Source: a virus (Duplodnaviria; Caudoviricetes). From it: a stretch of 58,248 nt of DNA. Positions 450 through 49,406 of the stretch are shown piece after piece. The stretch covers positions 1 through 58,248 of IMG/VR virus record IMGVR_UViG_3300021197_000769. One strand, written 5' to 3'. Numbering within the stretch: position 1 is the first letter of the stretch; each line of letters begins with the position of its first letter. The notes below the pieces were generated by a model. The model was not told where the DNA came from and did no database searches. It saw only the letters and a program-made list of their open reading frames with translations. The position numbers and the translations under genes are program-made.

Positions 450-3400
450 TTACTTTATTTTTTTTGTTGTTACTTTTACTTTTTTTGATTGCATTTTTTT
501 CCCCCCTTTGCTAAAAAATTTAATCGATTTATCTTTCTTAGCCTTTTTTTCTGCCTCTTGCTCTTTCTTTGTTAACCCAAGTGACCACTTATCCCAGCCT
601 AGTACTAAACCTATTCTTTGATAAGTGTGCATGTCTTCAGTTATAGCAGCTTCAACATTTTGAGCTTTTCTAATTACCCTATCTAATGGAACATTTCCTA
701 CGGCTGCTACAGTGTTACCTACAGCTAAATAAGCTGGGTTTTGTATATCAAATCCCATTGTTTCCATTTTATCTTTATCCCATTCAAAAGCTTTACCAAC
801 TGATTTTATTTTGCTGTACTTAGAAGATATAGGTGGGGATATTTTTAATAGCTCATCAGCTACATTACTATATTTAGGTCTGTCTTTTTCGCTTTCTTTA
901 TAAATTTTAAGCCCTACATTTTTTATTGTAGATACTACAGCCCCGGCAATACCAGTACCTCTTAATATAGAATCTAGCATTGAGTTCGCAATATTGATAG
1001 TTTTGTCAGTTGTTAAACCTTCTTCGTCTTCATCATCAAATGCTAAGCCAATTAATGCTTGTTGTAAGGCGGTAAATATAAGGTTCTGTACAGCCATGTA
1101 ATAAACAATCTTAGATATATTTGTTTTAGCGTCCCCACGCCCATTCTTAAGGTCTAAGACGGCTTTTTTTGTTAATCTAGCATATTGAGATGGGGTATTT
1201 GCAAAAGCTAATATAATGCGTCCTAATGGACCCGCTTGTTGCTGACTAATTTTATCTGGCCGACTTGATTGCTGAGAATCTTCTGCAGCTTCTCTAAAAT
1301 CATCAAAAGCCATTTGTTCTGCTTCAGCTTGGCTTAGCGTATCATCAGCCTTCATTAATGAATTAATTCTATTTCTATAAAAAGTTGCGCCACCTGAAGA
1401 TATTGCAAAGCTATCAGCTATCTGCGTAGGTGTAAATCCAAGTTGTAGTAATCTTGCTATTACAGCTTTAGGCCCGCCTTTTTTAGCTAAGCTTGCTATT
1501 TCTGCCTCTTCTACTTCCATTTTAAGCCCACCTCTACGATCTACTAAGTAGTCAGAATTAAATAAATACTTAAAATCTTTCCAATATTGTTTTTGATTTG
1601 CGAATGCTTTCCCAGCCGCAATTGGGTTGTTATCTGACCAATTTATAAAGTTAATTGAAGATATTGTTTGCAGAATAGCAGATCTAGTATTGAAGAACAT
1701 AATAACACCAGTAGACGCATTAAGGTAATCCATAAACCTACCTGTTAATCTATCCATATTTGGAGATCTGTTTCTACCACTCTTCATTCTATCTAATGAA
1801 TTTTCAAGGGCTTCTCTATAGTTACTACCAAAAGCGGCTTGTAATTTATTAAGGTTATCACTTGAAAATATTTCATCAACATTATTTTGCCATACTTGTA
1901 AATATTTTGTTCTAGTATCTGTATTAAGAACCTCTAAAAGATCTGTGGTTATGGTTCCTGTGGTCCAACTTTTTTCTGGCTTAGCATATCCCTCATTTTT
2001 AGTAAGTGCTATCAATGTATTTGCAAATTGCTGAAGTTCAGGATTTTTATTCATAAACTCCCCAAGTTCTGCTTTATCTGAATCATTTATTCCAGGAATA
2101 GTATTGCCTTGCTTGGTCCATATGTGATACCGAACGGCTTGTTCTCTTGTAAAATCAGATCCTGGTATTTTTTTAGCTAAGTCTTTAGGTGTTATATCTA
2201 ACTTATCTACTAAAGCATTGTAGTTTTTCATCATAGATATTCTAGCAGCACTTATATTTCTCATTGCTGCCGCATAAGGATCTAACAAGTTTTCCTTGTA
2301 CCACGCCATTTGAGCATCTCCTACTTTGCCTTTACCTAAAGTTGTGTACAATAATCCTAAAAAATCTTCTGCACTAGGCGGTATAAAGAACTTAAACCTT
2401 CCTTTACCATCACCTCTTACTTTTGCTCTTGCTGCAGACACCTCTCTACTACTTGGTATACCTGTTTTGTTTTCTATTATGTCGTTAAACGTTTTATTAA
2501 GACTTTGTTTTTTGCTAAACTTTATTTGTTTGTCAACTTCGTCGTCATATATGGCTTCAGCATTATCAATAGTTTCTTGAACAGTAGGCTCACCCTCTAA
2601 TTGTGAATCTTTTGGTAAAGCTTTATTATTTCCTTCTGCTGCTTTCTCTTTGGATTTTTGTAATGCTTTTTCTTTTAATGACACCTTATTGCCAGAAGCA
2701 TCTATACCAATGTCTACAGCAAAGCTTTTACCATTTATATTTATTAATGTTGACGGGTCTATTCCCCCTTTTATTTTTGCAACTTCTGGATTAAAATACC
2801 TATCATACCAGTTTTTCCAGCCTTCTGGCATTAATAATTTAAACCCTGCAGCATTTACCTTATTATTACTATCCTCACTTAAAGCTATTATATTATAGTT
2901 GTCTTTTATTTTATTAAATTCCGTTTTAAAATCTTTTTTAGGATCTAATATAGATTCCATTAAATTAAGGTAAGCTAACTGAGATGGCACAGCGTGCTCA
3001 TAATATAATTTACCAGCGTTTAATTGATAGCCTGTTATAGGGGCCCCTATTCTATGGGGATTAGTAGACTCATTGATTGAGTTTTCTAAAAAGTACATTA
3101 TAGGAACAGCCATATTTTTGTCTTTGCTTATAATGTCATTTATGTCATTCCACATTTTGTCAAAAACTTTACTGTTCTTTTCGTTATACTTATCTATTTT
3201 ACCACTTTTTAAAGCTTTTTTAAATTTTTCTTCAGTAGACCCTATAGCTCTACTAGGGCCTGTTCTCCCAACTGTAACTCTTTTAGGTAAATTTAAAGCC
3301 GCTAACCTTTTTCTTAAATAATTAGATATAGCCTTGTCTCCGCCTAAAGCTTTTGACCTAAATTGTAGAACAGTTCTGTTTAAAAGCTTAAAGTCCTCTG

Positions 3401-6400
3401 TGTTAAAAATATTTATTAATGGAAGAACCATATTATTTATATAGTTGTCTACATCCTTTTCCGTTCTTATCTCTGTATAGTTTAAATTATACTTGTTTAA
3501 TAAGTCTTTGCTTGATTTACTAAACATTATGTCTGCTTTACCAGCAGCTATATCCTGTTTCTCTTGGACTGTAACATCACCATATTCTCTAATCAGTTGA
3601 TTTGCAGATAATCTAGCCATAAGGTTTATCATACCTTGTAGCGTCTTGCTTTCTCTACCTCTTCCTGACGCATCAACAGTAACCATTAAGTCACCATTTG
3701 CATCCATACCAAAAGCTCTTAGAACATCTGTTTTATCTAAACCTCTTTTTAATATAAATGGTGCTAACCCATTCTTCTTTGTGAACCTAGGATTCTTATT
3801 ATATAACTCTTGTAATATGTTATTAGGTAAGTTAGTAGCAGTTCCTTGTAATTCCTTGCTAGTTAAACCACCTGGAGGTATTGCACCCTTAGGCAATAGT
3901 TTTAATATTAGGTCAATGTTTTCATTAGCCCATGCTCTAGCCGAAGTGTAATCCGCTCTATTAAATACAGTTTTCTTATCGGATAACTTTTTAACCGATA
4001 TTTTTAGTTCTTCTGAAATAGGTTCCAAAACGGCTAGTAAGGCCGCATCGTTTTTTTTAACGCCTATCTTTGCAAAGGTTCTTTCCTTAGCCGGTATATC
4101 CTTAGTTACTTCTTCTATTGTATCGATTGTTTTGTTTAATGCAACTTCATCCGCAATAAATTCTTCAGCTGGTTTTATTAAATCTGCAACCCTAGCGTCT
4201 TCTTCTGCAATTTCTATTGCTGTGCTAGTGGATTCAAAAGGCAATACATCATCTGATGCAATACCTCGCATACCTTCACTTTCAATGTCTTTTGTAAAGT
4301 CTGTTCCTAATATTCTCTCCGATGCGGCTATTGCTCTTAATGGCAAATTTTTATTTATGTATGCTGCAAGCGGAACACCTGATTCAGGCTTGTAGGTTCT
4401 TATTAAATCTATTAAGCCTCCTTTACCTGTGTTTATTTCGTCAGTTAGCAATTGTCTATCAAACCCAGGAGCATTCTCCCTTTTGTTAACAAGCCCGGCA
4501 ACCATGCCTCCAAACTGTTGTATTATTTCAAAGCTTCCATCAACACCTTTTTCTTCGTATATTTTTTGTACTTTTTCAGATGCCGCTTTTCCTGCCTCTG
4601 TTACAGGCTTAGCTCCCTCTTTTGCTTTTGGCTTAGCCTTAACCTCCGTAGGTCCTTGCTCTTCTATCTGCTTAATTTTAGCTTCTAGTACTGCTTCTTG
4701 AGATTCAAACTCTTCAAAGCTTATTTCACCAGCATTTCTTTTATCAAATAGGTCATCTATTTGCTTGCCAATTTTATTGATTTCAGATTTTTGAGCAGAG
4801 GTTAATGCTTTTGAAAACTTTATTTTGTCTTTGCTTTTAGGCTTTTTAATGCCTGCAAGTTTCTTTTGGGATTTAGTTAATTTACCTTTTTTAATACTTT
4901 TGTTGTAGTCTTTTACAAAATTTAATACGTCTTGGCCTGTATCAAATTTTATCTTAACACCCATTTTTTGTAATATCTCTCTTAAAATATTACCTATTTT
5001 AGCTAAAGTACTTTCATTAATGTTAAAAGTACCCTCAGCTAAAGCGTCCGATGTTAATGTTAATATTTCTTCCCACTCTACATCAAAGTCACCCGAAGTT
5101 AGTATCTTATCAACGACCGCATCCCATCCTTCAGGGTTTACGAGTTCATTTGTTTTTTTGTTTTTTACATATTGGCTTATTCTTTTCCCAAGCTTACTAG
5201 TCTTCATTTGCTCAGGATTAGAATCGTATAAGAACTTAAATAATTTCTTGCCTAGTTCGGCGCTTTGGCCCTTTTTTGTAAAAGACTTAGCAAGTAAAGC
5301 GTGTAAAAATTCGTGTGCAGCAACATTAACGTCTTCCGCTACTGCTGAAGCGTCTTTATTAATTACTATTACATTAGATCCATCTTTAAGTGTTATAAGA
5401 AAGCCCTGTGCTTCTCCAACAGAGTCTATCATTCTTTCTCCCTCTTTCGCTTCCTCTTTATCTTTAAATGGTTGCCTTTTACCTTCCTTAATTAAGTTCT
5501 CAACATAGCTTCGTACTTCTTCCCCTGTTTGGAATGTTTTAACTTCTGTATTTTCAAATCCTTCTGTTAATTTTTCAACTGTTTCTAAAGTTTCTTCAAA
5601 CCCGCCTAAATCGTTAATTGTTTCATTTAGTGCATCAATCTTTTTTTCTAGCTTAGTAATCTCTTCAGGATCAGTTGCTTCTTCAATATCAAATTTGTAG
5701 TCTTCTCTTTCCTCAATCAATTCATTGATTTTTGCTCTATTATCTGCTTGTTCAGCAACTCCACCATCTATTAAATCCCCTCCTAAAAACACATTTCTAG
5801 TAACTTCTTCCCCATCTACAATTATGGTTTTCTTAGAAGATGGCTTAACTTTTTTCAATGCCTCAGGAATGTCACCATCTATTACAATCTTTTGATTCCT
5901 ATTCAACGTCGGCTTTTTAAATTCCCCCTCAAAAATAGGTCTTGCTTCTATCAACGCTAAAAATTTACTTTTATCCCCTGATACTTTGTCTAGTTTAGAT
6001 TGTAAATTTTCTACTGTTTCTTTAGTATTGCCCCTTGCTTCAAGAGCTTTTTCTAAAATAGCCTCCTGTGCAGTTAAATCAAGTATTGTTCTATTTTCAG
6101 CGGCAGTTGCTTTAGTAGCAATAGTTTCTGCTGTTTCAAAAGTATTTATAAACTCTTCTGTTAGTAAATTTATTTGCTCCTTAACATTTTTTGAATCAAA
6201 CCCAGGTTGGTTAGCATTTGCTTGTGACAATAAATTTTCAACGGTTTTGTTAATTCTATTTATATTTTTTAATTCATTATTTTTTAAATATAAATATTGT
6301 GCCCCTGGAATAGTTGCAAATGTTGCAGATGTTGGCAATGACGCCGAAGCTTCAATAGCCCCCTGCCTAGCGGCCTTAGTAAAGTCCAATTCTTTACCTT

Positions 6401-8255
6401 TTGCCCAATCGTCAATTAAGCTTTCTGAACCCCCTTGAAAAAGTTCAGTACCGGGCTCTACAAAAATTGCATTTACAGCATCTTTCCCAAGCTGTCTTTT
6501 TAGTCCCGGATCTATTCTAATGCCTTGTCTTGTTGCTGCAGAAATAGTTTTGTTAACCGAACCAAGGCTACCTTTTATCATTTTGCCAAATTGGAATGTA
6601 TCAACCAAACCAAGTGTTCCTACCAAGCCAGATGCAACTCCGGCGCGGCCTTTGCTAACACCTTCTTTTCTAAGATTGTAATATGTTTCTTTCTGAAGAG
6701 CATTAGCAACTATGTATTTACCCGCCACTGGTATTGCCGCCGCAGCCATATACGAAGCAGATTCAAAGCCTAGCTTTGCTGCACCATTTATAAATCCAGT
6801 AATATCTCCATTTGCTAGCCTATCAATAACATCCTCTGTTTTATATAATTGAGGCCCACTTATTGCCTTTGAAGTTCTGTCTAGCTCGTCATAGTATCTT
6901 CTTAAAAATACGTCGTCTATGTCTTCCCCTGTTTTTTTTGATTCTTTTTTTGCTGTAGCGTAAGCGTTTTTTGCAGAAATTGTTACCATTCCTGCACCAC
7001 CAATTGGGGCAGCTTCAAATGAGCCTAAAACACCCGATACCTGTTCCGCATCTAAAAACCAGTCTAAACCCTCCGCTGCAAGCATTTTTAGACCTTTACT
7101 AAAAACATTGTAAAATCCTGCCGCACTTGCTCTTGCACTTCTAGTATATTCACCAGTCTCGGCGGCTTCAATTTGTTGGTTATTTATAGCTTGTAAATAC
7201 TCGTCGTTTTTTATATTTAGTTTAACAGAACCTTCCCCATTTAATATATCTTCATATTTATTTGATCCTAAAAATTTTTCCATTTCAGAACGAGGCACAG
7301 CTTTATTATCTATATAATATTCTGCTCCAGCTTCGTAAAAATCAACATCTGTATTTTTCTTTATTAAGTCTGCTTTTAATTTTTCTATTGTTTTTATTTG
7401 GCCCTCTAAATTAGTTCTTTCAGGGCTATCAAGCGGGTTTGCAAAATCAGCCACTCCTATTGGTCTAAATGTAGCTTTAGGCGTAGGTAGGTTTTCTATT
7501 TCTTCTTTTAGCTTTGCTATACGCTCATCAAAGGCCTGCAGCTGTTCTGGAGTGGTTCTTTTAATATCTCCAAGTACCTCTTTTCTACCGGGTACAAGGT
7601 TTATGTTAGATTCCCTCCACTCTGTTATGTTGTTGCCATATTTAGCATTAAGATTAGTAAACTTTTCTGCATTTTCATTTAATATTTTTAGCTCTTTGTT
7701 CACCTCTTCCCGCATTGTATCATCAACGGATTCAGGATTTGCATTGGCGGCAAAGTTTAAAGCATCGAGTGCTGCTCTAGCGGCATTGGCTTTTTTAGCA
7801 TAAGAGCTTAAGCTATCTTGTGCTCGGAAAAATTCATCATTTATCAATGCTATCTCACTAACCTCCTTATCTGGATCTAATGCCCTATCAATAGCTAATT
7901 GTCTTTTTTGCTCTGGTGATATTGTAGACGGATCCACGATAACCTTTGGGGTTACTGGTTCTATTTTCGGTTCTAAATTTATTTTAAACTGAACTTTTGG
8001 ATCATACTTATCTTCATTATCCTCTTCTTGTGGCGCTAAAGGTCCAACCCCAGATGCTGAAACTTCTTCCGTTGCTGTGGCCACATCTTCCTCCACAACA
8101 ACATCTTTCTTTCCCGGCTTTTCAACTGCAAATTTCTCAAAAAAACTTTTAGCCATTGCATCTATATCCTCTTCGGAATATCCTTGTTCGTACATTAGCT
8201 TGGAATTGGCGTTAAGCCTATTTAGCATTTCAGGTGTTAATTCTTTATCGTTCAT
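450..8255 (-). CDS. Giant internal virion/ejection protein, polyvalent-type: zincin peptidase + sigma70-like + HNH-like + membrane-associated C-terminal domain
   Basis: 2601 aa; last and largest of three genes after the tail genes (T7 gp14/15/16-like order). HEFLH at 5301-5315, sigma region 2-like 4305-4532, region 4-like 3978-4118, EHAVP..N..N at ~2860-2999, hydrophobic helices near the C-terminus. Confidence 0.8.
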   Translation of the reverse strand: MNDKELTPEMLNRLNANSKLMYEQGYSEEDIDAMAKSFFEKFAVEKPGKKDVVVEEDVATATEEVSASGVGPLAPQEEDNEDKYDPKVQFKINLEPKIEPVTPKVIVDPSTISPEQKRQLAIDRALDPDKEVSEIALINDEFFRAQDSLSSYAKKANAARAALDALNFAANANPESVDDTMREEVNKELKILNENAEKFTNLNAKYGNNITEWRESNINLVPGRKEVLGDIKRTTPEQLQAFDERIAKLKEEIENLPTPKATFRPIGVADFANPLDSPERTNLEGQIKTIEKLKADLIKKNTDVDFYEAGAEYYIDNKAVPRSEMEKFLGSNKYEDILNGEGSVKLNIKNDEYLQAINNQQIEAAETGEYTRSARASAAGFYNVFSKGLKMLAAEGLDWFLDAEQVSGVLGSFEAAPIGGAGMVTISAKNAYATAKKESKKTGEDIDDVFLRRYYDELDRTSKAISGPQLYKTEDVIDRLANGDITGFINGAAKLGFESASYMAAAAIPVAGKYIVANALQKETYYNLRKEGVSKGRAGVASGLVGTLGLVDTFQFGKMIKGSLGSVNKTISAATRQGIRIDPGLKRQLGKDAVNAIFVEPGTELFQGGSESLIDDWAKGKELDFTKAARQGAIEASASLPTSATFATIPGAQYLYLKNNELKNINRINKTVENLLSQANANQPGFDSKNVKEQINLLTEEFINTFETAETIATKATAAENRTILDLTAQEAILEKALEARGNTKETVENLQSKLDKVSGDKSKFLALIEARPIFEGEFKKPTLNRNQKIVIDGDIPEALKKVKPSSKKTIIVDGEEVTRNVFLGGDLIDGGVAEQADNRAKINELIEEREDYKFDIEEATDPEEITKLEKKIDALNETINDLGGFEETLETVEKLTEGFENTEVKTFQTGEEVRSYVENLIKEGKRQPFKDKEEAKEGERMIDSVGEAQGFLITLKDGSNVIVINKDASAVAEDVNVAAHEFLHALLAKSFTKKGQSAELGKKLFKFLYDSNPEQMKTSKLGKRISQYVKNKKTNELVNPEGWDAVVDKILTSGDFDVEWEEILTLTSDALAEGTFNINESTLAKIGNILREILQKMGVKIKFDTGQDVLNFVKDYNKSIKKGKLTKSQKKLAGIKKPKSKDKIKFSKALTSAQKSEINKIGKQIDDLFDKRNAGEISFEEFESQEAVLEAKIKQIEEQGPTEVKAKPKAKEGAKPVTEAGKAASEKVQKIYEEKGVDGSFEIIQQFGGMVAGLVNKRENAPGFDRQLLTDEINTGKGGLIDLIRTYKPESGVPLAAYINKNLPLRAIAASERILGTDFTKDIESEGMRGIASDDVLPFESTSTAIEIAEEDARVADLIKPAEEFIADEVALNKTIDTIEEVTKDIPAKERTFAKIGVKKNDAALLAVLEPISEELKISVKKLSDKKTVFNRADYTSARAWANENIDLILKLLPKGAIPPGGLTSKELQGTATNLPNNILQELYNKNPRFTKKNGLAPFILKRGLDKTDVLRAFGMDANGDLMVTVDASGRGRESKTLQGMINLMARLSANQLIREYGDVTVQEKQDIAAGKADIMFSKSSKDLLNKYNLNYTEIRTEKDVDNYINNMVLPLINIFNTEDFKLLNRTVLQFRSKALGGDKAISNYLRKRLAALNLPKRVTVGRTGPSRAIGSTEEKFKKALKSGKIDKYNEKNSKVFDKMWNDINDIISKDKNMAVPIMYFLENSINESTNPHRIGAPITGYQLNAGKLYYEHAVPSQLAYLNLMESILDPKKDFKTEFNKIKDNYNIIALSEDSNNKVNAAGFKLLMPEGWKNWYDRYFNPEVAKIKGGIDPSTLININGKSFAVDIGIDASGNKVSLKEKALQKSKEKAAEGNNKALPKDSQLEGEPTVQETIDNAEAIYDDEVDKQIKFSKKQSLNKTFNDIIENKTGIPSSREVSAARAKVRGDGKGRFKFFIPPSAEDFLGLLYTTLGKGKVGDAQMAWYKENLLDPYAAAMRNISAARISMMKNYNALVDKLDITPKDLAKKIPGSDFTREQAVRYHIWTKQGNTIPGINDSDKAELGEFMNKNPELQQFANTLIALTKNEGYAKPEKSWTTGTITTDLLEVLNTDTRTKYLQVWQNNVDEIFSSDNLNKLQAAFGSNYREALENSLDRMKSGRNRSPNMDRLTGRFMDYLNASTGVIMFFNTRSAILQTISSINFINWSDNNPIAAGKAFANQKQYWKDFKYLFNSDYLVDRRGGLKMEVEEAEIASLAKKGGPKAVIARLLQLGFTPTQIADSFAISSGGATFYRNRINSLMKADDTLSQAEAEQMAFDDFREAAEDSQQSSRPDKISQQQAGPLGRIILAFANTPSQYARLTKKAVLDLKNGRGDAKTNISKIVYYMAVQNLIFTALQQALIGLAFDDEDEEGLTTDKTINIANSMLDSILRGTGIAGAVVSTIKNVGLKIYKESEKDRPKYSNVADELLKISPPISSKYSKIKSVGKAFEWDKDKMETMGFDIQNPAYLAVGNTVAAVGNVPLDRVIRKAQNVEAAITEDMHTYQRIGLVLGWDKWSLGLTKKEQEAEKKAKKDKSIKFFSKGGKKMQSKKVKVTTKKIK

Positions 8256-8261: not shown

Positions 8262-9995
8262 TTAAATTAAAGGCCCAAACCCAGATTGTAAAATAACTTT
8301 TCCATTTTTATCAAATCTTATTGGTGCTGGCTTAGATACTGTCCTAACTTCTATTGGTACGAATTTTTCTTCTAAGTAAGTTTTTATCTTATCCATATCA
8401 TTAAATATATCGTATCCTTCATCTAATATTGGAACATAATCTTTAAACATTGTTTCTTCACCGTCTTCTACTTCTTTTCTTAGTTGTTCTCTAACAGGGT
8501 AAAATTTACCATCTTTTATTTCAAAGTTAATATTTGGCGTAATTAAACCACCCATTTCTTTTCTAAATGCATCTATTATATCCTTCTCATCTATATCTGA
8601 TGCTTTAATTGGAATGCCACTTTTGCCAGGTTTTGTTTTTCGTATTTTAGCAACATTGGATTCTAAATTTTCAAATGCTCTATCAATCTGGCCTTGTATT
8701 TGATTAGCTTTTAATTGTATGTCTCTAGGTTTATCAGCTTTGGTATCGCTAGCCATAGATTTTCTAAGCCTTTCAGTTGCGGCAGCATCAATTTCTCTTT
8801 TAGGGTCACTAAATGCGCCGGCCCCATTGGCAGATATCTCATGTACCATTCGCATAAAACCATCATATTCGTCGTCACTTAAAAAAGCTGTGCTTGGTGA
8901 ATTATTTTCTGTGTCCATAATAAATTCTCCAAATTCGTTAGTGATAGGGGTTACTTTATCTTCCCGCTCTGCTTTGCCCTCTGCATTCTTATATATAGAT
9001 CCATCTTTATTTCTTTTAAAAAATCTATATCCAACAGCATCGCTACCCGGAATTTTTTCTCCTATACCCTCCTCTTGGAGTAAATCTAGCATTGATTCCA
9101 CTCCATTTTTTATAATTAACTCGCCATACTCTGTTGCAGCGGGTTCAACAGAAGAATACAGCTTATCTGAATCAATACTTTCTATATTATATATGGAGCT
9201 TGCAACATTTTCAGTTGATTCTTTTATAAACATGTCAGCAGGAGTATTATTGGCCTTTAAAACATCTATCCCCTTTAAAATTTCTTGTGTACCCCCGATA
9301 ACATCAGGATTTATCCTGTAGCTTTGTCTATTAAATTTTGTTTCAGGGTTTTCGCCCCCTAAAAAATTAGCGTAATCTCTTATTGTAACTCCATCTTTTT
9401 TACGCTCAAGGTAGTCATGGTATTCTCCATCATCGCCTAACTCAACTCCATAACTTTTTTCCCATCCAGTTCCAGAGGAGTATGCTTCTAAAAAATTGCC
9501 TGTTGCAGAGGCAGGAGAGATTTGATTTGGTTTTGATCCAACCCCCTTTGATAGATCATTATTTATTTGTTCGTCCGAGGCCTCTAAGTTAGCTAAACTT
9601 GTTTGAAGTCCATTAAAATACTGTTGCCCCGCAGCAACTAATCTAGTTTCTTTGTTATATTCCTCCGTTCCAGTCTCTAATCCCCCTGGTAGGGTTCTTA
9701 TTCTTCCATTAGCGGTTTGCATGGAAACAAATTTAGTAGCGTCCGTAACGCTTTGAGCATTAAGGGAACTATTTTCAATATTTGAATTTCCAATAGAAAG
9801 GCGTTTAGCCTCCTCTGTATGAATTTTTCTTATAGCCTTATCAGTCTCTTCTTTTTGTTTAGCTCTTTTTTCGGATTGTTTTAATGAGGCTTGCAAAATT
9901 TTATTAAAATTAGCAGAAAGTCTATCTGTTGTAGCCCTAGATATTTTACCCGATTGTGTATCAACTAATGATGCTGGTTTTCTATATGTACCCAT
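8262..9995 (-). CDS. Putative internal virion (ejection) protein
   Basis: 577-aa hydrophilic ORF between the Ala/Gln-rich gene and the giant gene; function is positional inference only. Confidence 0.6.
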   Translation of the reverse strand: MGTYRKPASLVDTQSGKISRATTDRLSANFNKILQASLKQSEKRAKQKEETDKAIRKIHTEEAKRLSIGNSNIENSSLNAQSVTDATKFVSMQTANGRIRTLPGGLETGTEEYNKETRLVAAGQQYFNGLQTSLANLEASDEQINNDLSKGVGSKPNQISPASATGNFLEAYSSGTGWEKSYGVELGDDGEYHDYLERKKDGVTIRDYANFLGGENPETKFNRQSYRINPDVIGGTQEILKGIDVLKANNTPADMFIKESTENVASSIYNIESIDSDKLYSSVEPAATEYGELIIKNGVESMLDLLQEEGIGEKIPGSDAVGYRFFKRNKDGSIYKNAEGKAEREDKVTPITNEFGEFIMDTENNSPSTAFLSDDEYDGFMRMVHEISANGAGAFSDPKREIDAAATERLRKSMASDTKADKPRDIQLKANQIQGQIDRAFENLESNVAKIRKTKPGKSGIPIKASDIDEKDIIDAFRKEMGGLITPNINFEIKDGKFYPVREQLRKEVEDGEETMFKDYVPILDEGYDIFNDMDKIKTYLEEKFVPIEVRTVSKPAPIRFDKNGKVILQSGFGPLI

Positions 9996-10013
9996 GTTCC
10001 TTTATTATTTTTA

Positions 10014-10748
10014 TTACCCTAAGCCCCCGAAGCCTTTGCTTATATTTCCACTACCAAAGCCTGTTCTAGGCATAAAGGTTTTTCTAGGTATACTTATATT
10101 ACTTTTTTTGCCAAGGCTGCCAAGGTCAAACTGTCCACTACTAATTCCTGCCCCCGCTAAACTACCGGCCATATCTCCTAATGCGCCAAGGCCACTTGAA
10201 AAAGCCGCTCTTTTATCAATTGTCGATTGCATTTCTCTTGCTCTTTGCTCATCAGTTAATGATTGTGTTCTATCTAATTGTTCCACAATGCGAGCTTCTG
10301 CTCTTAACCCTTCTTCTAATTTTTTCTGTTGTAAAACCGCTTCTCCTTCGGCTCTTAATTTTTCGTTAGCCGCCTCTTGTTTTTCTATGCTAGCCGAAAC
10401 CCCCTTTTTACTTGATAAAGCTGCTTGTGCTAATGCCGTAGCCCCACCTGCTGCTCCGCCTGTTGCTCTGATTGTGTCTAATGTATTTGCTAAAGCAATA
10501 TCTGTTTGCTCAATTTGCATTTCTGCGGCTTGTGCTGCGACACCTAAGTTAGCATATGTGTTACTAAATTGTCCTTCAAAATTATTTACAAGATCTCTTC
10601 TTTCTTGCTCTAAATTTTTTAAAGTCCTTTCCAAAGCCTCTCTTTTGCCTTTAGCATCTGCTTTATCTTTTTTTGCATTAGCCATACCTACTATAGTATT
10701 AGTTATAGCTGATCCCGCTTGTACTAACATTGCTGCCATTAGTCCCAT
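10014..10748 (-). CDS. Putative small ejection/pilot protein
   Basis: 244 aa, Ala/Gly/Gln-rich coiled coil with hydrophobic Gly-rich N- and C-terminal segments, typical of podovirus gp14-like proteins. Confidence 0.65.
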   Translation of the reverse strand: MGLMAAMLVQAGSAITNTIVGMANAKKDKADAKGKREALERTLKNLEQERRDLVNNFEGQFSNTYANLGVAAQAAEMQIEQTDIALANTLDTIRATGGAAGGATALAQAALSSKKGVSASIEKQEAANEKLRAEGEAVLQQKKLEEGLRAEARIVEQLDRTQSLTDEQRAREMQSTIDKRAAFSSGLGALGDMAGSLAGAGISSGQFDLGSLGKKSNISIPRKTFMPRTGFGSGNISKGFGGLG

Positions 10749-10762: not shown

Positions 10763-12529
10763 TTAAGATTTAACATATTTTGAGGATACCGCAAATAATG
10801 TTTTAGTACCACCTACATCTGTGGTGCTGTCGGTACTAATTTTAACAGTTGCAAAGTATCCTTTTATTCCGCTCATGCTATCGTTTGATGCCACTTGCCC
10901 TGGCATACCGAATGGTATACTTTGGGAAACAGCCCCTGTTGAATCAACACCTTTATTTATTAGGTTAGCATAATATTTGTTTTCTTTTCTATCAAATCCT
11001 ACTCTATATGTTATTCCACCTTCAATATATGCGCCCTCATCGTAGCTATATACAAGTGATGTTTTATCTTGATAGTTAATTGATTCTATACTAAGTCCCG
11101 TTGGGTCTGATAAAAAGTAATCCGACTGCCAACCGTTAGACCCTTCGTAGTTTACTGTTTGGAAATTTTTAGAGATATAAACATCGGGATTAAAGGATAG
11201 TATAACCGATGTTGGGTAATACGTTCCATAGAAGTACCCTCTATTATTAATTACACTTTTATCGTAATGTTTCCAAATAGATGCACCTTTGCATGTGTAA
11301 TAACTGCTATTTAATGTACCGCCAAAGCTTGGGTCGTAATCCCAAAAACTTGTCCAAGCATTATTTGATTCATTAAATGATAGTGTGTTGTACGTTTCTA
11401 TATTATCCCCATCATTAAATACTTGTGTTGATACAACATACTTATCATGGTAGTTGTCGTATGCTCCAACAATTTTATCTTTAACATAACTAAATAAAGA
11501 TATTTCTCCAGTATCACCCCCCGACAATGGATTGTCAAAAATAATATCAATATCTGGGTCGGTTTTTCCAATATATATATAAGCTTCAGGTGTAGGAGTA
11601 CTACCGCTGTTAAAAAATATGCCCTTTACATAAAAATTATTAGGGGTTATTCCTAATATACCCATACCTACTTCTATAGTATTAGGAATTTCTGTAGTTC
11701 CCTCGGGTAAATCTAAAATAAGGTACTCATTGCCTGGACCTATTTTTGCCGTAAAAGTATTCTCTTTTGATTTATTTATAGTGGTAACAGTAGCTAAGTC
11801 ATCTCTAAAGAAGTCTCTCATTCCATATGAACTTATTTCCGTTATACCATCTCTTGATAGCCTTAAAATAGCTCCTCTGCTTCTGTCAGAAAAATACATT
11901 CTGTATCCTTTAAAGGCAAAAGATTCTGGGTTTTGACTAATGCCATATTCTCCAGTATATTGGTTAACCTGGCCTAAAACTAACCTTGACGCTGTCAATG
12001 CAGGGTTTCCATCTGCAGTGTATATTGCGTCCTTGTCTATTAAGGCATTACTAACTTTATCTTCCTGAAATATTATTAGGTTGGTATCAGTGGTGTATAA
12101 CTTTTGTATGCCTCCGTATCTTGGGTCAACTTCTTTTGTTATGTTTTCTCCTGTAGAAAAAACGTTAGTTTCGTTTAATCCAGTTAACCGATTGTATAGT
12201 CCAGAGTATATTATTCCGTTGCTAAGTATTAGTTCTGAATCTTCAGACTCTGTTATATAAGCCTTTACTCCAAAATCTACTGATGTATTATTGTATCCTC
12301 CTCGTATCCTAGACTCTTCTATGTACCAATACTTTGTTTGGTAACCCTCAAAAGTTTGCCCGCCTAAAGCATATAGTGGAAATCGGGGATACCCTTCTAT
12401 ATTACTCCATGCTAGTCCAGGCCAAACAGCAGCTCCAGATGATTGCTCAGCAATTACTGGACCAACCCCCGTTGCAACCTTTTTTAACAAAAAAGAATTA
12501 AAGTACTGTACTTCTGTAGTAGCGCTCAT
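10763..12529 (-). CDS. Tail stabilization/nozzle (muzzle)-like protein, C-terminal-type part
   Basis: 588 aa beta-rich; motifs YGGIQKL, LIIFQEDKVS, GEYGISQNPES, YFSD..RGAILRLS.DGITEIS..GM recall crAss-like/P22 gp10-like tail stabilization proteins. Confidence 0.65.
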   Translation of the reverse strand: MSATTEVQYFNSFLLKKVATGVGPVIAEQSSGAAVWPGLAWSNIEGYPRFPLYALGGQTFEGYQTKYWYIEESRIRGGYNNTSVDFGVKAYITESEDSELILSNGIIYSGLYNRLTGLNETNVFSTGENITKEVDPRYGGIQKLYTTDTNLIIFQEDKVSNALIDKDAIYTADGNPALTASRLVLGQVNQYTGEYGISQNPESFAFKGYRMYFSDRSRGAILRLSRDGITEISSYGMRDFFRDDLATVTTINKSKENTFTAKIGPGNEYLILDLPEGTTEIPNTIEVGMGILGITPNNFYVKGIFFNSGSTPTPEAYIYIGKTDPDIDIIFDNPLSGGDTGEISLFSYVKDKIVGAYDNYHDKYVVSTQVFNDGDNIETYNTLSFNESNNAWTSFWDYDPSFGGTLNSSYYTCKGASIWKHYDKSVINNRGYFYGTYYPTSVILSFNPDVYISKNFQTVNYEGSNGWQSDYFLSDPTGLSIESINYQDKTSLVYSYDEGAYIEGGITYRVGFDRKENKYYANLINKGVDSTGAVSQSIPFGMPGQVASNDSMSGIKGYFATVKISTDSTTDVGGTKTLFAVSSKYVKS

Positions 12530-18537: not shown

Positions 18538-18556
18538 TTATAAATATAGTTACGTG

Positions 18557-26839: not shown

Positions 26840-26840
26840 A

Positions 26841-27125
26841 TTAACTGAATTTGGCTCTACCTTCTGCAAACCCTTTAAACTCACTTTTCTTTTTAGTGCT
26901 GTCTTTGGGTTTATCTTCTAACATTTCTTTTTCTTGCTCAATTCTATTTAGAATTTCAAAAGCATCAAAAATCGCTAGCTTCTTAGTTGCTGCGGCATTC
27001 TTTAACTTATCCGCGGCTAAGTCGTCGTCTGAATCAACAATAGCTTCTTTAGCTACTTTTATTAATTCTTCAACCGCTCTTTGTCCAGCTTGGATTATAC
27101 TCTTCTTCGTTTCCTTTACGTTCAT
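26841..27125 (-). CDS. Putative terminase small subunit
   Basis: 94-aa helical protein immediately upstream of terL; DKLKNAAATKKLAIFDAFEIL motif. Function is positional. Confidence 0.55.
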   Translation of the reverse strand: MNVKETKKSIIQAGQRAVEELIKVAKEAIVDSDDDLAADKLKNAAATKKLAIFDAFEILNRIEQEKEMLEDKPKDSTKKKSEFKGFAEGRAKFS

Positions 27126-31205: not shown

Positions 31206-31462
31206 AAAACAACAACAACGTCAAATTCTTTAATAACCTTATATATCACTTTATCAATCTCCATATCAAACCCCGCGTGTCTATCGTAGTAAATAGTGTC
31301 TCCATCTTGTACTCCTTCAACTAGCGTTCCTATGGTCTTCACTTTAGCTTCCCTGTACCTTATATCTTCTCTGTGGCTCTCTCCTAAAATTAAACCACCT
31401 TTAGTAGATACTTCTTTCTCCTTTACAGGCTCTATCAACATATACTTCCCTACTGCCTTCAT
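31202..31462 (-). CDS. groES: Co-chaperonin GroES
   Basis: MKAVGKYMLIEP..E..TKGGLIL (mobile loop), V..IG..V.GV..GD.IYY; adjacent to groEL. Confidence 0.9.
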   Translation of the reverse strand: MKAVGKYMLIEPVKEKEVSTKGGLILGESHREDIRYREAKVKTIGTLVEGVQDGDTIYYDRHAGFDMEIDKVIYKVIKEFDVVVVL

Positions 31463-33323: not shown

Positions 33324-33369
33324 TTTAAATTTTGTTTGTTATTGTTGTTATATATAGTTACTTATTTTT

Positions 33370-40611: not shown

Positions 40612-40686
40612 ATTATCGATGTTTAATTTTGTGTTCTATACTTATAAATAGTTACACAGGAAACACAATACTTACATAGACAAAAC

Positions 40687-41025: not shown

Positions 41026-41067
41026 CGCAGACATAATACGTGGTTGACATGATAATAATAGTGTAAC
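41026..41067 (+). promoter_or_regulatory. Early promoter-like motif copy 1
   Basis: CGCAGACATAATACG-N9-TGATAATAATAGTGTAAC. Confidence 0.75.
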
Positions 41068-41104: not shown

Positions 41105-41145
41105 CGCAGACAAAATACGTAGTGTATTTGATAATAATAGTGTAA
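41105..41145 (+). promoter_or_regulatory. Early promoter-like motif copy 2
   Basis: CGCAGACAAAATACG-N9-TGATAATAATAGTGTAA, upstream of ATG 41182. Confidence 0.8.
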
Positions 41146-42050: not shown

Positions 42051-42092
42051 CGCAGACAAAATACGTAGTTATTATGATAATATATGTGTAAC
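42051..42092 (+). promoter_or_regulatory. Early promoter-like motif copy 3
   Basis: CGCAGACAAAATACG-N9-TGATAATATATGTGTAAC, upstream of ATG 42124. Confidence 0.8.
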
Positions 42093-42570: not shown

Positions 42571-42612
42571 CGCAGACAAAATACGTCACCTAAATGATAA
42601 TATATATGTAAC
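42571..42612 (+). promoter_or_regulatory. Early promoter-like motif copy 4
   Basis: CGCAGACAAAATACG-N9-TGATAATATATATGTAAC, upstream of ATG 42638. Confidence 0.8.
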
Positions 42613-42825: not shown

Positions 42826-42867
42826 TGCAGAAATAATACGTCACTGTAATGATAATATATGTGTAAC
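42826..42867 (+). promoter_or_regulatory. Early promoter-like motif copy 5
   Basis: TGCAGAAATAATACG-N9-TGATAATATATGTGTAAC. Confidence 0.8.
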
Positions 42868-43148: not shown

Positions 43149-43188
43149 TGCAGACAAAAAACGTTACTGAATTGATAATAAATATGAA
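43149..43188 (+). promoter_or_regulatory. Early promoter-like motif copy 6
   Basis: TGCAGACAAAAAACG-N9-TGATAATAAATATGAA. Confidence 0.75.
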
Positions 43189-44190: not shown

Positions 44191-44232
44191 TGCAGATTAA
44201 ATACGGCACCGCAATGATAATAAATATGTAAC
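44191..44232 (+). promoter_or_regulatory. Early promoter-like motif copy 7
   Basis: TGCAGATTAAATACG-N9-TGATAATAAATATGTAAC. Confidence 0.8.
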
Positions 44233-44675: not shown

Positions 44676-44918
44676 AAACACAATGGTTACTTTAACTACG
44701 AAACGTGGCGAGTAATGCTAGAGATATTAGGAGACATCGAATGGGATGCTGATGAAGAAGTAACTGCAGATCTTCTTGAAGAAATTGTAAACGACGTTGT
44801 CTTCAACAATACAGTTGAAAAAGATTGTCTCGCTGCTAGCTATGCAAGATCCTTCTTGTCTAACGTAAACTACTACGAATTAGCTGAAACAATAAACGAA
44901 GATAGAGTTGCAGACTAA
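44664..44918 (+). CDS. Conserved acidic phage protein
   Basis: 84 aa; HNGYFNYETW.V and VNYYELAE motifs common in small phage early proteins. Confidence 0.7.
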   Translation: MKNKKHNGYFNYETWRVMLEILGDIEWDADEEVTADLLEEIVNDVVFNNTVEKDCLAASYARSFLSNVNYYELAETINEDRVAD

Positions 44919-44949
44919 ATACGCAAACTTATTGATAATATATATGAAC
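44909..44949 (+). promoter_or_regulatory. Early promoter-like motif copy 8
   Basis: TGCAGACTAAATACG-N9-TGATAATATATATGAAC; overlaps the upstream stop codon. Confidence 0.8.
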
Positions 44950-46558: not shown

Positions 46559-46598
46559 TGCAGACAAAATACGATCTAATATTGATAATAATAATGAA
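46559..46598 (+). promoter_or_regulatory. Early promoter-like motif copy 9
   Basis: TGCAGACAAAATACG-N9-TGATAATAATAATGAA, upstream of ATG 46614. Confidence 0.8.
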
Positions 46599-48650: not shown

Positions 48651-49406
48651 ATGAAAAAATACAGTGTAACAAATTACATTCGGTACAAAGAAGATTTAAA
48701 AAAATCTATGCCAGACGATAAACTATGGAATGAATATAGTAGAGATGAAATGATAATAAAGTTCTTACCTTTAGTAGAAAATTTAGCAAGAAAGTTTGCT
48801 ACATCACAGCAAGCTAGTGGTATACTAACTATAAATGATCTTATACAGATCGGGTCTGAAGCTTTAATCAGAGCAACAGATAAGTTAGATTACAACAAGC
48901 TTAATGAATCTGAAGATATTGAAAAGACTTTAAAGTCATTTCTTAGTAAAAGAATTAAAGGAGCAATTAGACGTAGAATAGATATGAATAGTGGAGGAAT
49001 TAAAATACCAGAGCATAAAAGAAGTCAGATGCGAAAAAATCCAGATGATAAAAGTATGGTACAGATGTTTTTTAATTCTATATTCTTAAGTATCGATGCC
49101 GTAAATATGGATGAAGATGGTAACACACTATACCATAATATAGTTGACAAGTCAGAACCATATAATATTAATATATTAAATGCTTATTTGAAAGGATTAA
49201 TGCAGAAACATTTAACAATAAATGAATATCAAGTATTACGATTATCTTATGGACTAGACTGTGAGAAGCACTCGGCTAAAGAGATAGCTCATATATTAGG
49301 GCTTAAAGGTATCAGTAATCACGTAAGAGTTTCAGAGCTAAAGAAACAAGCAGTTAATTCACTTGTAGATAAAGTTGATCACGAGCAAGTTATTGATTAT
49401 TTATAA
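48651..49406 (+). CDS. Sigma70-family RNA polymerase sigma factor
   Basis: Region 2 FLPLVENLARKF...DLIQIGSEALIRA.DK.D...RIKGAIRR.I; region 4 LT..EYQVLRLSYGL...SAKEIA..LG....RVSELKKQA. Confidence 0.9.
   Translation: MKKYSVTNYIRYKEDLKKSMPDDKLWNEYSRDEMIIKFLPLVENLARKFATSQQASGILTINDLIQIGSEALIRATDKLDYNKLNESEDIEKTLKSFLSKRIKGAIRRRIDMNSGGIKIPEHKRSQMRKNPDDKSMVQMFFNSIFLSIDAVNMDEDGNTLYHNIVDKSEPYNINILNAYLKGLMQKHLTINEYQVLRLSYGLDCEKHSAKEIAHILGLKGISNHVRVSELKKQAVNSLVDKVDHEQVIDYL

What the first reader, a model, noticed from the sequence alone, without database searches (positions are those of the whole stretch)
450..8255. Candidate new system: virion-injected polyprotein that releases a sigma factor to fire a dedicated set of early promoters
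Seen: the 2601-aa protein occupies the large-ejection-protein slot and reads, N to C, as HExxH peptidase (aa ~981), IKFSK (1145), sigma70-like regions 2 and 4 (aa ~1242-1426), IMFSK (1576), HNH-like domain, IKFSK (1911), hydrophobic C-terminal domain. Nine copies of a bipartite promoter-like motif with fixed spacing precede the earliest genes (41.0-46.6 kb). The free-standing sigma gene (48651) lies downstream of them, so it cannot be made before they fire unless host holoenzyme reads them. Known: N4 and crAss-like phi14:2 inject a whole RNA polymerase for early transcription, and phage polyvalent proteins often carry zincin peptidases. Inference: this phage injects a ~430-aa sigma-containing fragment, cut out by its own zincin, that redirects host core RNAP. 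I know of no described virion-delivered sigma factor, but could not check the literature.
Basis: partly seen in the sequence, partly recalled or inferred. Interest (0 to 1): 0.93.

Follow-up and report, generated by a model that had tools for sequence, protein, structure and literature searches.

The report
Sigma-like domain in phage cargo protein
A giant protein that this marine phage probably carries in its particle contains a module shaped like the RNA-polymerase-binding part of a bacterial sigma factor, so the phage may inject its own promoter-recognition factor to start its early genes, which has not been tested in the laboratory.

Summary
The sequence observations mostly hold. The 2601-aa ORF, HEFLH at aa 981 and three I[KM]FSK motifs are there, plus a fourth, IKFFSK at aa 2578. 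The nine-copy bipartite motif is real (0 expected by chance).

Residues ~1221-1321 fold like sigma-factor domain 2. VIA Z is 6.5-8.1 against 10 different sigma factors, and sigma complexes dominate the Foldseek list. The nearest ESM-Atlas clusters carry Sigma70_r2. A co-fold with Flavobacterium beta-prime 1-420 scores 0.74 against 0.00 for the best control, at region-2.2-like residues.

Sequence profiles do not support this. Pfam gives 0 of 31 family members, and hhalign gives E 0.066.

No sigma-4 was found. Residues 1357-1578 form a confident compact domain with no PDB match (best Z 3.5). The HNH-like and hydrophobic C-terminal labels were not confirmed.

The module, the motif and a free-standing sigma gene occur together in relatives. 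All three are missing from the cultured sister phage elemoF. I therefore could not tell which sigma reads the motif. Self-cleavage at FSK is untested and is not a feature of the whole family.

Verdict: a credible candidate for an injected sigma-like factor, supported only in silico. I put about 0.38 on the full mechanism.

The parts
450..8255 (-). Giant ORF of 2601 aa, a polyvalent cargo or ejection-type protein
   Evidence: 795 homologues of 1430-4552 aa at E<=1e-3. 331 clusters at 50% identity.
5556..8255 (-). Variable N-terminal part, aa 1-900
   Evidence: Not covered by BLASTP matches in the 113 relatives compared. A family profile matches the N-terminal part of elemoF gp18, but with a high bias score.
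4824..5555 (-). Zincin-like peptidase module, aa ~901-1144 (HEFLH at aa 981-985, nt 5301-5315)
   Evidence: HExxH plus a downstream E are at least 90% conserved in 45 relatives. Only weak Pfam zincin hits (M78 0.043, DUF3267 0.07). 191 of 205 family members carry HExxH.
4809..4823 (-). IKFSK motif 1, aa 1145-1149
4626..4808 (-). Long helical hairpin, aa ~1150-1210
   Evidence: Model helices 6-27 and 33-52. Only generic coiled-coil matches.
4293..4595 (-). Sigma-factor domain-2-like module, aa ~1221-1321. It is the most conserved stretch of the family.
   Evidence: VIA Z 8.1 (rmsd 2.6, 86 aligned) to SigB and Z 6.5-7.4 to nine other sigma factors. Foldseek list dominated by sigma complexes, best E 0.11. 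ESM Atlas nearest cluster carries Sigma70_r2, score 0.96. Co-fold with RpoC scores 0.74 against 0.00 for the best control. 50-68% identity in distant relatives.
4188..4292 (-). Acidic linker of low confidence, aa ~1322-1356
   Evidence: pLDDT below 50 at model residues 180-207. D+E fraction 0.29.
3531..4187 (-). Compact conserved domain of unknown fold, aa ~1357-1575
   Evidence: Model pLDDT 87.5 and pTM 0.86. Best VIA Z 3.5, and none of 48161 chains reaches Z>=5. Best Foldseek E 0.47.
3516..3530 (-). IMFSK motif 2, aa 1576-1580
   Evidence: A motif of this kind sits at this alignment column in 19 of 45 relatives.
2526..3515 (-).
   Evidence: Shared by about 37 of 113 relatives. No Pfam match. 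Function not established.
2511..2525 (-). IKFSK motif 3, aa 1911-1915
   Evidence: A motif of this kind sits near this boundary in 10 of 45 relatives.
525..2510 (-). Conserved C-terminal domain, aa 1916-2577
   Evidence: Shared by ~105 of 113 relatives. Nearest named ESM-Atlas clusters are LPD39 (28% of members, score 0.95) and LPD38 (0.93); this is a lead only. No strongly hydrophobic window.
507..524 (-). IKFFSK motif 4, aa 2578-2583
41027..41057 (+). Early promoter-like motif, copy 1
   Evidence: 1 mismatch.
41106..41136 (+). Early promoter-like motif, copy 2
   Evidence: 0 mismatches.
42052..42082 (+). Early promoter-like motif, copy 3
42572..42602 (+). Early promoter-like motif, copy 4
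42827..42857 (+). Early promoter-like motif, copy 5
43150..43180 (+). Early promoter-like motif, copy 6
44192..44222 (+). Early promoter-like motif, copy 7
44910..44940 (+). Early promoter-like motif, copy 8
46560..46590 (+). Early promoter-like motif, copy 9
48651..49406 (+). Free-standing phage sigma factor, 251 aa
   Evidence: All 8000 candidates scored reached E<=0.001; most of the 120 listed are 70-74% identical to it.
10763..12529 (-). Muzzle-protein homologue that marks the cargo-gene neighbourhood
   Evidence: Pfam crAss_MUZ_C 2.1e-8, above cut-off.
8262..10748 (-). Two ORFs (244 and 577 aa) between the muzzle gene and the giant ORF. They occupy the position of crassvirus cargo proteins C1 and C2.
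   Evidence: No Pfam or PHROG match. The assignment is by gene order only, compared with PMC10172136.

Best explanation
The ORF encodes a polyvalent cargo protein of an uncultured marine podovirus. The phage has a crAss-type muzzle and is a sister to Flavobacterium elemoviruses. The ORF sits where crassviruses encode their virion-packaged RNA polymerase.

Its conserved core reads, in order:
- a zincin-like peptidase;
- a helical hairpin;
- a very divergent sigma-factor domain 2 (aa ~1221-1321);
- an acidic linker;
- a 220-aa domain of unknown fold;
- a C-terminal domain resembling large-polyvalent-protein (LPD) domains.

**Proposed mechanism (all steps inferred)**
1. The protein is ejected into the cell ahead of or with the DNA.
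2. Its sigma-2-like module docks on the beta-prime clamp helices of host core RNA polymerase.
3. Together with the unknown domain, which stands in for sigma-4, it directs the host enzyme to the phage-specific early promoters RCARAMNNAAYACG-N9-KGATAATA.
4. These promoters express the small early genes and, further downstream, the free-standing sigma gene.
5. The free-standing sigma then takes over middle and late transcription.

**What is shown in silico:** the fold, the predicted docking, the reality and conservation of the motif, and the co-occurrence.

**What is inferred:** packaging and ejection, DNA recognition by the module, any proteolytic release, and the order of events.
For: **1. Fold**
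- The model of aa 1148-1578 has pLDDT 84.2.
- By VIA, model residues 74-174 match SigB (Z 8.1, rmsd 2.6, 86 aligned), AlgU 7.4, sigma-28 7.1, SigE 7.0, ShbA 6.9, sigma-32 6.9, pro-sigma-K 6.8, SigA domain 2 6.8, RpoS 6.7 and sigma-70 6.5.
- That is 10 of the 13 rows covering this range.
- About 32 of 49 Foldseek rows are chains from sigma or initiation-complex entries. Chain identities were not checked, and no E-value is below 0.1.

**2. Language-model features.** The nearest cluster carries Sigma70_r2 in 100% of members (score 0.96). All 10 of the 10 best family-bearing hits share that family or clan.

**3. Docking**
- The co-fold with RPOC_FLAJ1 residues 1-420 scored 0.74 in the median run. 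The best of 3 controls scored 0.00.
- This mark was reached by 58 of 80 solved complexes and 2 of 110 mismatched pairs.
- Runs agree in at least 90% of contacts, and partner pLDDT is at least 78.
- The interface is beta-prime 288-319 and 337-340 against the stretch 'QLLTDEINTGKGGLIDLIR'.
- The pass may reflect memory of solved sigma-core complexes.

**4. Conservation.** This stretch is the most conserved part of a family of 331 clusters.

**5. Motif**
- Nine copies in the window against 0 expected.
- 7-10 copies in G001-G004, 5 in G006 and 9 in G008.
- A variant with AATAYN in place of AAYACG occurs in 5-7 reverse-strand copies in each of G007, G014 and G015.
- Every relative that holds both the module and its early region has the motif: 9 of 9 (G000-G004, G006, G007, G014, G015).

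**6. Sister phage.** The cultured sister elemoF has a 3694-aa giant protein in the same slot. It lacks the module, the motif and the free sigma. It carries a TTTG..TAnnTTTG match at the head of its early operon.

**7. No host-type promoter.** No such match lies in the window's early region.

**8. Gene order.** Muzzle gene, two ORFs, giant ORF mirrors PhiCrAss001 gp44, then gp45 and gp46, then the RNA-polymerase cargo (PMC10172136, passages read).

**9. No phage RNA polymerase.** None was seen among the 25 ORFs scanned besides the giant protein, and the giant protein has no DxDxD motif.
Against: - **Sequence profiles do not see a sigma factor.** Pfam gives no Sigma70 hit for the protein, its pieces, 31 family members or the G007 version.
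- hhalign against the free-sigma family gives E 0.24. Against 20 host sigma ORFs it gives E 0.066, or 0.37 for the sigma-2 part alone.
- A PDB profile search finds nothing.
- **Structure scores are modest.** VIA Z values of 6.5-8.1 lie in the range the tool says a common helical arrangement can reach.
- **No sigma-4 was found**.
- **The free-standing sigma is a confound.** It is present in every relative whose contig covers its expected position, so it could be the reader of the motif.
- The three contigs without it all break exactly where it would lie, and no end-to-start closure was found.
- **A host-type promoter may drive the sigma gene.** A match lies 369 nt upstream of it here and 341 nt upstream in G002, that is in 2 of 6 genomes.
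- Read as cAGACA-17-GATAAT, the motif also resembles an ordinary sigma-70-type promoter.
- **Packaging is inferred from synteny only.** The host is inferred from the 85 phage records with a similar capsid-type protein.
Confidence: 0.38

Rival explanations
1. The sigma-2-like module is an injected binder of host RNA polymerase, not a promoter-specificity factor.

By occupying the beta-prime clamp helices it could do one of two things:
- displace host sigma-A and so shut off the host;
- tether polymerase at the DNA entry channel and help transcription-coupled genome entry.

The nine-copy motif would then be read by the free-standing sigma or by host holoenzyme.
For: - The fold and docking evidence bears only on core binding.
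- No sigma-4 or other known DNA-binding fold was found next to the module.
- The free sigma co-occurs with the motif wherever this could be checked.
Against: - The module and the motif share the same presence or absence across relatives.
- The 220-aa domain after the module is conserved with it in most relatives. This suggests a two-part reader rather than a simple plug.
- No host-type promoter match lies in the early region.
Confidence: 0.27
2. The free-standing sigma (48651-49406) reads the nine-copy motif. The small-gene cluster is then a middle class of genes.

The sigma gene is first expressed from a host-type promoter inside the upstream gene. The giant protein plays no part in promoter choice.
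For: - The motif can be read as -35 cAGACA, a 17-nt spacer, and -10 GATAAT. That suits a two-domain sigma.
- TTTG-N21-TAnnTTTG lies at 48250-48282, 369 nt upstream of the sigma gene. A like match lies 341 nt upstream in G002.
- The sigma gene is found in G000-G006, G008 and G009.
Against: - The host-type match is present in only 2 of 6 genomes. It lies in a conserved coding stretch that may explain it.
- Total host-type matches in the window equal the chance expectation, 3 against 2.95.
- The motif has three conserved blocks, including AAYACG inside the would-be spacer.
- A different element, CGTAAYTATAW, sits just downstream of the sigma gene and before structural genes in several genomes. 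It is a candidate for the free sigma's own promoters, although it is not enriched genome-wide.
Confidence: 0.2
3. The helical module only looks like sigma domain 2 and has nothing to do with RNA polymerase. It could be a structural or chaperone-like part of an ejection protein. The predicted docking would then be an artefact of the model's memory of sigma-core complexes.
For: - No sequence-profile method reaches significance.
- Foldseek's best E-value is 0.11.
- VIA's own notes warn that Z below 8 may reflect a common arrangement.
- The docking tool warns that pairs resembling solved complexes can pass from memory.
Against: - Three different kinds of method point to the same family: structure alignment, language-model features and co-folding with controls.
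- 10 of the 13 VIA rows covering this range are sigma factors.
- The contact residues fall on the stretch that aligns with region 2.2.
- The G007 version reads '...KFDPRINDNWSTYAGSQL', which resembles the region-2.3 signature of sigma-70 proteins as I recall it.
Confidence: 0.15

Closest known systems
Virion-packaged RNA polymerases: N4 vRNAP, crAss-like phi14:2 gp66 and PhiCrAss001 gp47/49/50, and the P23-45 tape-measure-fused RNAP
   Same: - A giant protein encoded beside tail and cargo genes.
- Thought to be delivered with the DNA to start early transcription from a dedicated promoter set.
- The same gene position after the muzzle gene (abstract of bioRxiv 10.1101/2020.03.07.982082 and passages of PMC10172136).
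   Different: - No polymerase catalytic motif. The DFDxD motif named in that abstract is absent, as is any DxDxD.
- No fold match to 6vr4 beyond Z 2.3 for aa 1342-1578.
- The protein would borrow the host core enzyme rather than bring its own.
T4 gp55 and other minimal phage sigma factors (recalled, not tested here)
   Same: A sigma-domain-2-only protein that binds the beta-prime clamp helices and reads a single -10-like element (TATAAATA in T4, GATAATA here).
   Different: - gp55 is a small free protein made after infection, and it acts late.
- Here the module is embedded in a 2601-aa presumed virion protein and is linked to early promoters.
- No homology to gp55 was tested.
Polyvalent proteins of phages and conjugative elements (Iyer et al. 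2017, PMC5512222)
   Same: - A giant multidomain protein with a zincin-type metallopeptidase and variable effector modules.
- The paper proposes autoproteolytic release of domains after injection (passages read).
- The C-terminal domain is nearest to LPD38 and LPD39 clusters by ESM features.
   Different: - The word 'sigma' occurs 0 times in that paper, so a sigma-like module is not among its listed domains.
- LPD membership here is only a lead.
T4 Alt, an injected ADP-ribosyltransferase that retargets host RNA polymerase
   Same: A virion-delivered protein that biases host polymerase towards phage early promoters (as described in PMC5512222).
   Different: Alt modifies the polymerase chemically. 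Here the proposed action is stoichiometric binding as a specificity subunit.
Elemovirus giant structural protein (elemoF gp18, 3694 aa)
   Same: - The same genome slot in a phage whose capsid-type protein is 44.5% identical.
- Annotated as a structural protein.
- Possible N-terminal homology, though the bias score is high.
   Different: - It lacks the sigma-like module and the C-terminal domain.
- The elemoF genome lacks the motif and the free sigma.

Membership tests
Sigma-70 family (Pfam Sigma70_r2 / Sigma70_r4) | Sequence match to the Sigma70_r2 profile above its cut-off | tested here: not met
   - No Sigma70 hit at E<=1 or E<=10 for the protein, for five pieces of it, for 31 family members or for the G007 version.
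- hhalign gives E 0.066-0.37.
Sigma-70 family | Domain-2 fold (helical bundle of regions 1.2-2.4) | tested here: met
   - VIA Z 8.1 (rmsd 2.6, 86 aligned) to SigB, and Z 6.5-7.4 to nine more sigma factors, over model residues 74-174.
- 5h6x_B: TM 0.58 normalised by the target, rmsd 4.4.
- The Z values are modest by the tool's own notes.
Sigma-70 family | Binding of domain 2 to the beta-prime clamp helices | tested here: inconclusive
   - In silico only. Score 0.74 against 0.00 for the best of 3 controls.
- The mark was reached by 58 of 80 solved complexes and 2 of 110 mismatched pairs.
- At least 90% of contacts are shared between runs, and partner pLDDT is at least 78.
- The pass may come from memory of solved complexes.
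- That beta-prime 288-319 are the clamp helices is my inference from recalled E. coli numbering.
Sigma-70 family | Domain 4 (helix-turn-helix that reads the -35 element) | tested here: inconclusive
   - Not among the Foldseek or VIA matches of the aa 1342-1578 model. Best Z is 3.5, and no chain reaches Z>=5.
- A co-linear but non-significant hhalign alignment places an HTH-like stretch opposite region 4.2.
Sigma-70 family | Promoter-specific initiation with core RNA polymerase | not testable with these tools
   Needs in vitro transcription.
crAss-type virion RNA polymerase | DFDxD catalytic motif and two-barrel fold | tested here: not met
   - No DxDxD anywhere in the 2601 aa.
- 6vr4_B appears only at Z 2.3 for aa 1342-1578.
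- Only aa 1148-1578 were folded.
Polyvalent proteins (Iyer et al. 2017) | Giant phage protein that combines a zincin metallopeptidase with several unrelated modules | tested here: met
   - HExxH and a downstream E are at least 90% conserved.
- The modular conservation map has variable inserts.
- Relatives carry Zeta-toxin/AAA, LysM or DUF6934 domains.
Polyvalent proteins | LPD38/LPD39 C-terminal domain | tested here: inconclusive
   - Pfam finds no hit.
- The ESM Atlas nearest named clusters are LPD39 (28% of members, 0.95) and LPD38 (0.93); these are leads only.
Self-processing polyprotein | Conserved cleavage motif at module borders, tied to the peptidase | tested here: inconclusive
   - [ILVMF]xFS[KR] is enriched: 56 observed against 9.9 +/- 3.3 in shuffles across 45 relatives.
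- It sits at two module borders, in 19 and 10 of 45 relatives.
- But 85 of 205 members have none, and its count is unrelated to HExxH, with means of 1.11 and 0.86.

The most novel reading that the evidence does not exclude
A large, abundant clade of marine Flavobacteriia-type podoviruses has replaced the injected RNA polymerase of its crAss-like relatives with an injected, minimal sigma factor.

In this reading a sigma-2 module is fused to a new kind of upstream-element-reading domain. It is carried inside a polyvalent cargo protein and turns host core polymerase onto a three-block early promoter at time zero, before any phage protein is made.
Probability: 0.35. Interest if true: 0.9.

Novelty: new variant of a known kind. 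Interest (0 to 1): 0.72.

Why it matters
Phages are known to start early transcription in three ways. They use the host holoenzyme, inject a complete RNA polymerase, or inject an enzyme that modifies the host polymerase. An injected sigma-like subunit would be a fourth and cheaper route.

It would explain how phages of Bacteroidota, whose host promoters are unusual, can use promoters unlike the host's from the first minute.

The family is large. There are 331 clusters at 50% identity for the module. All 8000 scored candidates for the companion sigma reached E<=0.001, from marine and other metagenomes. No cultured member was found among 50,697 phage records.

The 220-aa domain with no structural match is itself a candidate new DNA-binding fold.

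**Literature check**
- Six phrases for an injected or packaged sigma factor returned only papers on reovirus sigma proteins, 13 of 13 by title.
- The polyvalent-protein survey does not contain the word sigma.
- Subscription journals and supplementary files were not searched.

Tried and rejected
- **Family scans of the giant protein.** PHROGs returned 0 families. Pfam returned only chance-level hits (GvpG and the like).
- **PDB sequence searches.**
  - The whole protein hit only amylases, at E>0.1.
  - The 431-aa piece gave one SigA row at E 9.
  - A profile of 31 sequences found nothing relevant.
- **BLASTP of the free sigma against the giant protein.** No match.
- **Searches of 50,697 phage records.** No match for blastn of the ORF, nor for tblastn of the 431-aa piece, the 129-aa core or the free sigma.
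- **Related loci.** The single-sequence search in viral contigs found none. The alignment-based search found 220.
- **Host from genomes.** The module occurs in four contigs binned with Parvibaculum, Arcobacter and Flavobacteriaceae MAGs. Binning of phage contigs is unreliable, so I did not use it.
- **crAss-type RNA polymerase.** Rejected, because there is no DxDxD motif.
- **G005 'promoter repeat'.** It turned out to be a coding repeat, IDNVSVKEV. That contig lacks the early region.
- **Contigs that might separate the two sigmas.** Three ~56-kb contigs have the module and a motif variant but no free sigma. All three break where the sigma gene would be, and no closure was found.
- **Candidate late promoter GTAAYTATW.** Not enriched, 8 against 8.4 expected.
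- **RNA evidence.** No RNA holder was listed. No reads were laid.
- **tRNA scan.** None found.
Full report
**What the window is**

The window is a whole IMG/VR virus record of 58,248 bp, rated 91% complete. Structural genes lie on the minus strand from about 40.6 kb down to 0.45 kb. They include:
- large terminase, 24626-26884;
- P22-type portal, 22220-24625;
- a protein with the crassvirus muzzle C-terminal domain, 10763-12529;
- GroEL and a GroES-like protein.

Small ORFs, a sigma factor, Erf, an exonuclease, a primase-helicase, thymidylate synthase and ribonucleotide reductase lie on the plus strand from 41 kb onward.

None of the 25 other ORFs scanned looks like an RNA polymerase.

A capsid-type protein (19496-20983) has tblastn matches in 85 phage records, each covering at least 80% of it, at below 60% identity (44-50% in the rows listed). 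Of these, 68 are Flavobacterium elemoviruses, 15 are Cellulophaga phages, one is a Maribacter phage and one is unnamed. A Flavobacteriia host is therefore a reasonable inference, not a demonstration.

**The observation**

The 2601-aa ORF and its short motifs are as described, with a fourth FSK-type motif near the C-terminus.

The nine-copy motif is exact in position and strand. It was never seen in 100 shuffles.

**The family**

Residues 1148-1578 have 795 homologues at E<=1e-3, among proteins of 1430-4552 aa. They have 331 clusters at 50% identity.

A BLASTP map over 113 relatives shows three conserved blocks: aa ~900-1140, ~1200-1580 and ~1900-2560. Two variable regions lie at aa 1-850 and 1600-1900.

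The most conserved stretch anywhere is aa ~1212-1337, at 50-68% identity even in distant members.

HExxH and a downstream glutamate are at least 90% conserved.

**Is it sigma-like?**

Sequence methods say no.
- Pfam finds no Sigma70 domain in the protein, its pieces, 31 relatives or a divergent relative.
- hhalign against the phage's own sigma family gives E 0.24.
- Against 20 sigma ORFs taken from three MAGs it gives E 0.066, or 0.37 for the core alone. The alignment is nevertheless co-linear.

Structure and other methods say yes for domain 2.
- An AlphaFold model built on 46 sequences has pLDDT 84.2.
- VIA-align against 48,161 chains ranks SigB first (Z 8.1, rmsd 2.6, 86 residues). It lists nine more sigma factors at Z 6.5-7.4, all over model residues ~74-174.
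- The other high rows only match the preceding helical hairpin.
- Foldseek has no significant E-value (best 0.11). About 32 of its 49 listed rows come from sigma or initiation-complex entries.
- ESM-Atlas feature search puts aa 1205-1345 next to Sigma70_r2 clusters at 0.96.
- In the relative G007 the same region reads '...KFDPRINDNWSTYAGSQL'. To my recollection this resembles the region-2.3 signature of sigma-70 proteins.

**Docking**

I co-folded model residues 65-185 with residues 1-420 of Flavobacterium johnsoniae RpoC.
- The scores were 0.74, 0.74 and 0.75. The best of three controls scored 0.00.
- This mark was reached by 58 of 80 solved complexes and 2 of 110 mismatched pairs.
- The runs share at least 90% of contacts, and partner pLDDT is at least 78.
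- The interface is beta-prime 288-319 and 337-340. I take these to be the clamp helices by analogy with E. coli numbering, which I recalled.
- On the module side the contacts fall on the stretch that aligns with region 2.2.
- The tool warns that such a pass can come from memory of solved sigma-core complexes. It shows likeness, not binding.

**What follows the module**

Residues 1342-1578 fold on their own into one compact domain (pLDDT 87.5, pTM 0.86). It has no structural neighbour. Foldseek's best E-value is 0.47 and VIA's best Z is 3.5, with no chain at Z>=5.

Sigma-4 was therefore not found, and the 'regions 2 and 4' reading is only half right.

The C-terminal 660 residues are nearest to clusters carrying LPD39 or LPD38, which is a lead only. 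No part of the protein is strongly hydrophobic.

**The FSK motifs**

In 45 relatives [ILVMF]xFS[KR] occurs 56 times, against 9.9 +/- 3.3 in shuffles. It clusters at the end of the sigma-like block (19 of 45) and at the start of the C-terminal domain (10 of 45).

The motif is not a family trait, though. 85 of 205 members have none. Its count does not follow the presence of HExxH. The complete relative G006 has the module but neither HExxH nor FSK.

Self-cleavage at FSK is possible but unsupported.

**The promoters in relatives**

- The motif RCARAMNNAAYACG-N9-KGATAATA occurs in 7-10 copies in G001-G004, 5 in G006 and 9 in G008.
- A variant with AATAYN occurs in 5-7 reverse-strand copies in each of G007, G014 and G015.
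- The copies are always on one strand and are clustered ahead of small ORFs.
- Every relative that holds both the module and its early region has the motif, 9 of 9.
- G005, G009 and G010 are cut in or before the early region. G008 is cut before the module.
- The cultured sister elemoF has a 3694-aa structural protein in the same slot. It has no module, no motif and no free sigma. It shows a TTTG..TAnnTTTG match at the head of its early operon.
- That Bacteroidota-type pattern is recalled, not taken from a call. It has no match in the window's early region.

**The confound**

The free-standing sigma is found in G000-G006, G008 and G009. The same co-occurrence therefore fits the idea that it, not the module, reads the motif.

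Three ~56-kb contigs have the module and the motif variant but no sigma, by protein search or by the PHROG 351 profile. The positive controls G000 and G001 score 1.4e-21 and 2e-20. All three contigs break between the early region and the replication genes, and their ends do not close on each other. They decide nothing.

A host-type promoter match lies 369 nt upstream of the sigma gene here and 341 nt upstream in G002. It is found in only 2 of 6 genomes, and it lies inside a conserved coding stretch.

**Judgement**

I hold with fair confidence, about 0.65-0.7, that this family of cargo-slot giant proteins carries a sigma-2-like module that binds RNA polymerase.

The full mechanism is that it is injected and fires the early promoters. 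This is the best single reading, at about 0.38. Close behind are two rivals: an injected polymerase binder without promoter specificity, and the free sigma as the reader of the motif.

**Literature**

- Six phrases for an injected or packaged sigma factor returned 13 papers, all on reovirus sigma proteins by their titles.
- The polyvalent-protein survey contains 'sigma' 0 times (passages read).
- The crassvirus structure paper describes cargo proteins encoded after the muzzle gene (passages read).
- The phi14:2 preprint states that crAss-like phages encode a virion-packaged protein with a DFDxD motif (abstract seen).
- Supplements were closed.

Noticed in passing
window 43508-43592 (+): A tRNA-like or tmRNA-like element lies inside the early region. 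Rfam tmRNA scores 17.5 bits (E 6.6e-4), far below the gathering score of 47, and ARAGORN finds no tRNA. Similar '...GGTTCGAATCC...' ends lie just upstream of early ORFs in G001 (near 61488) and G002 (near 1423).
   Followed up: partly
window 40682-40734, 43008-43060 and about 47950-48004: A ~50-bp palindromic element (GTGAC...TTATTATATATA...GTCAC) occurs at three places: the divergent junction, inside the early region, and just before the gene upstream of sigma. Its k-mers (CAGGCTAA, GTCACACT) recur in the intergenic DNA of 4-5 related genomes. It may be an operator or a switch between gene classes.
   Followed up: partly
window 40766-40832: Three tandem 20-nt repeats (TTAGATATAGAGATATT-like) lie next to long A and T runs. 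A GC-rich block at ~40960-41020 lies between the divergent modules. This could be an origin or a genome end.
   Followed up: no
window 18538-18553, 33346-33361, 40640-40655 (-); also G001 3080 and 3770, G004 35185: CGTAAYTATAW-like elements lie upstream of structural genes and just downstream of the sigma gene in relatives. They are candidate promoters for the free-standing sigma. The core is not enriched genome-wide, 8 against 8.4 expected.
   Followed up: partly
window 48250-48282 (+): This is the only match to the Bacteroidota-type promoter pattern (TTTG-N21-TAnnTTTG) that lies on the strand of the genes around it. It lies 369 nt upstream of the sigma gene, inside the preceding ORF. A like match lies 341 nt upstream of the sigma gene in G002.
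   Followed up: partly
window 31462-33000 (-) and 27070-27666 (-): The phage encodes GroEL (PHROG 5725, 3.7e-135) and a GroES-like protein. The related elemoviruses have these as well.
   Followed up: no
L234 (G006:C1:50300-56800): In a relative rated 100% complete, the giant protein is only 1926 aa. It keeps the sigma-2-like module (2.8e-47) and the C-terminal domain, but has neither HExxH nor an FSK-type motif.
   Followed up: partly
G007, G014 and G015 contig ends (L232, L241-L245): Three contigs of ~56 kb from different assemblies all break within about 1 kb of the same two places. These flank the segment where the sigma gene lies in the window's type. The segment may be hard to assemble, or hypervariable.
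   Followed up: partly
window 42000-42050, 42490-42570, 40970-41026: GC-rich stretches followed by 'TATAGCA'-like words precede several copies of the early motif. Their role is unknown.
   Followed up: no
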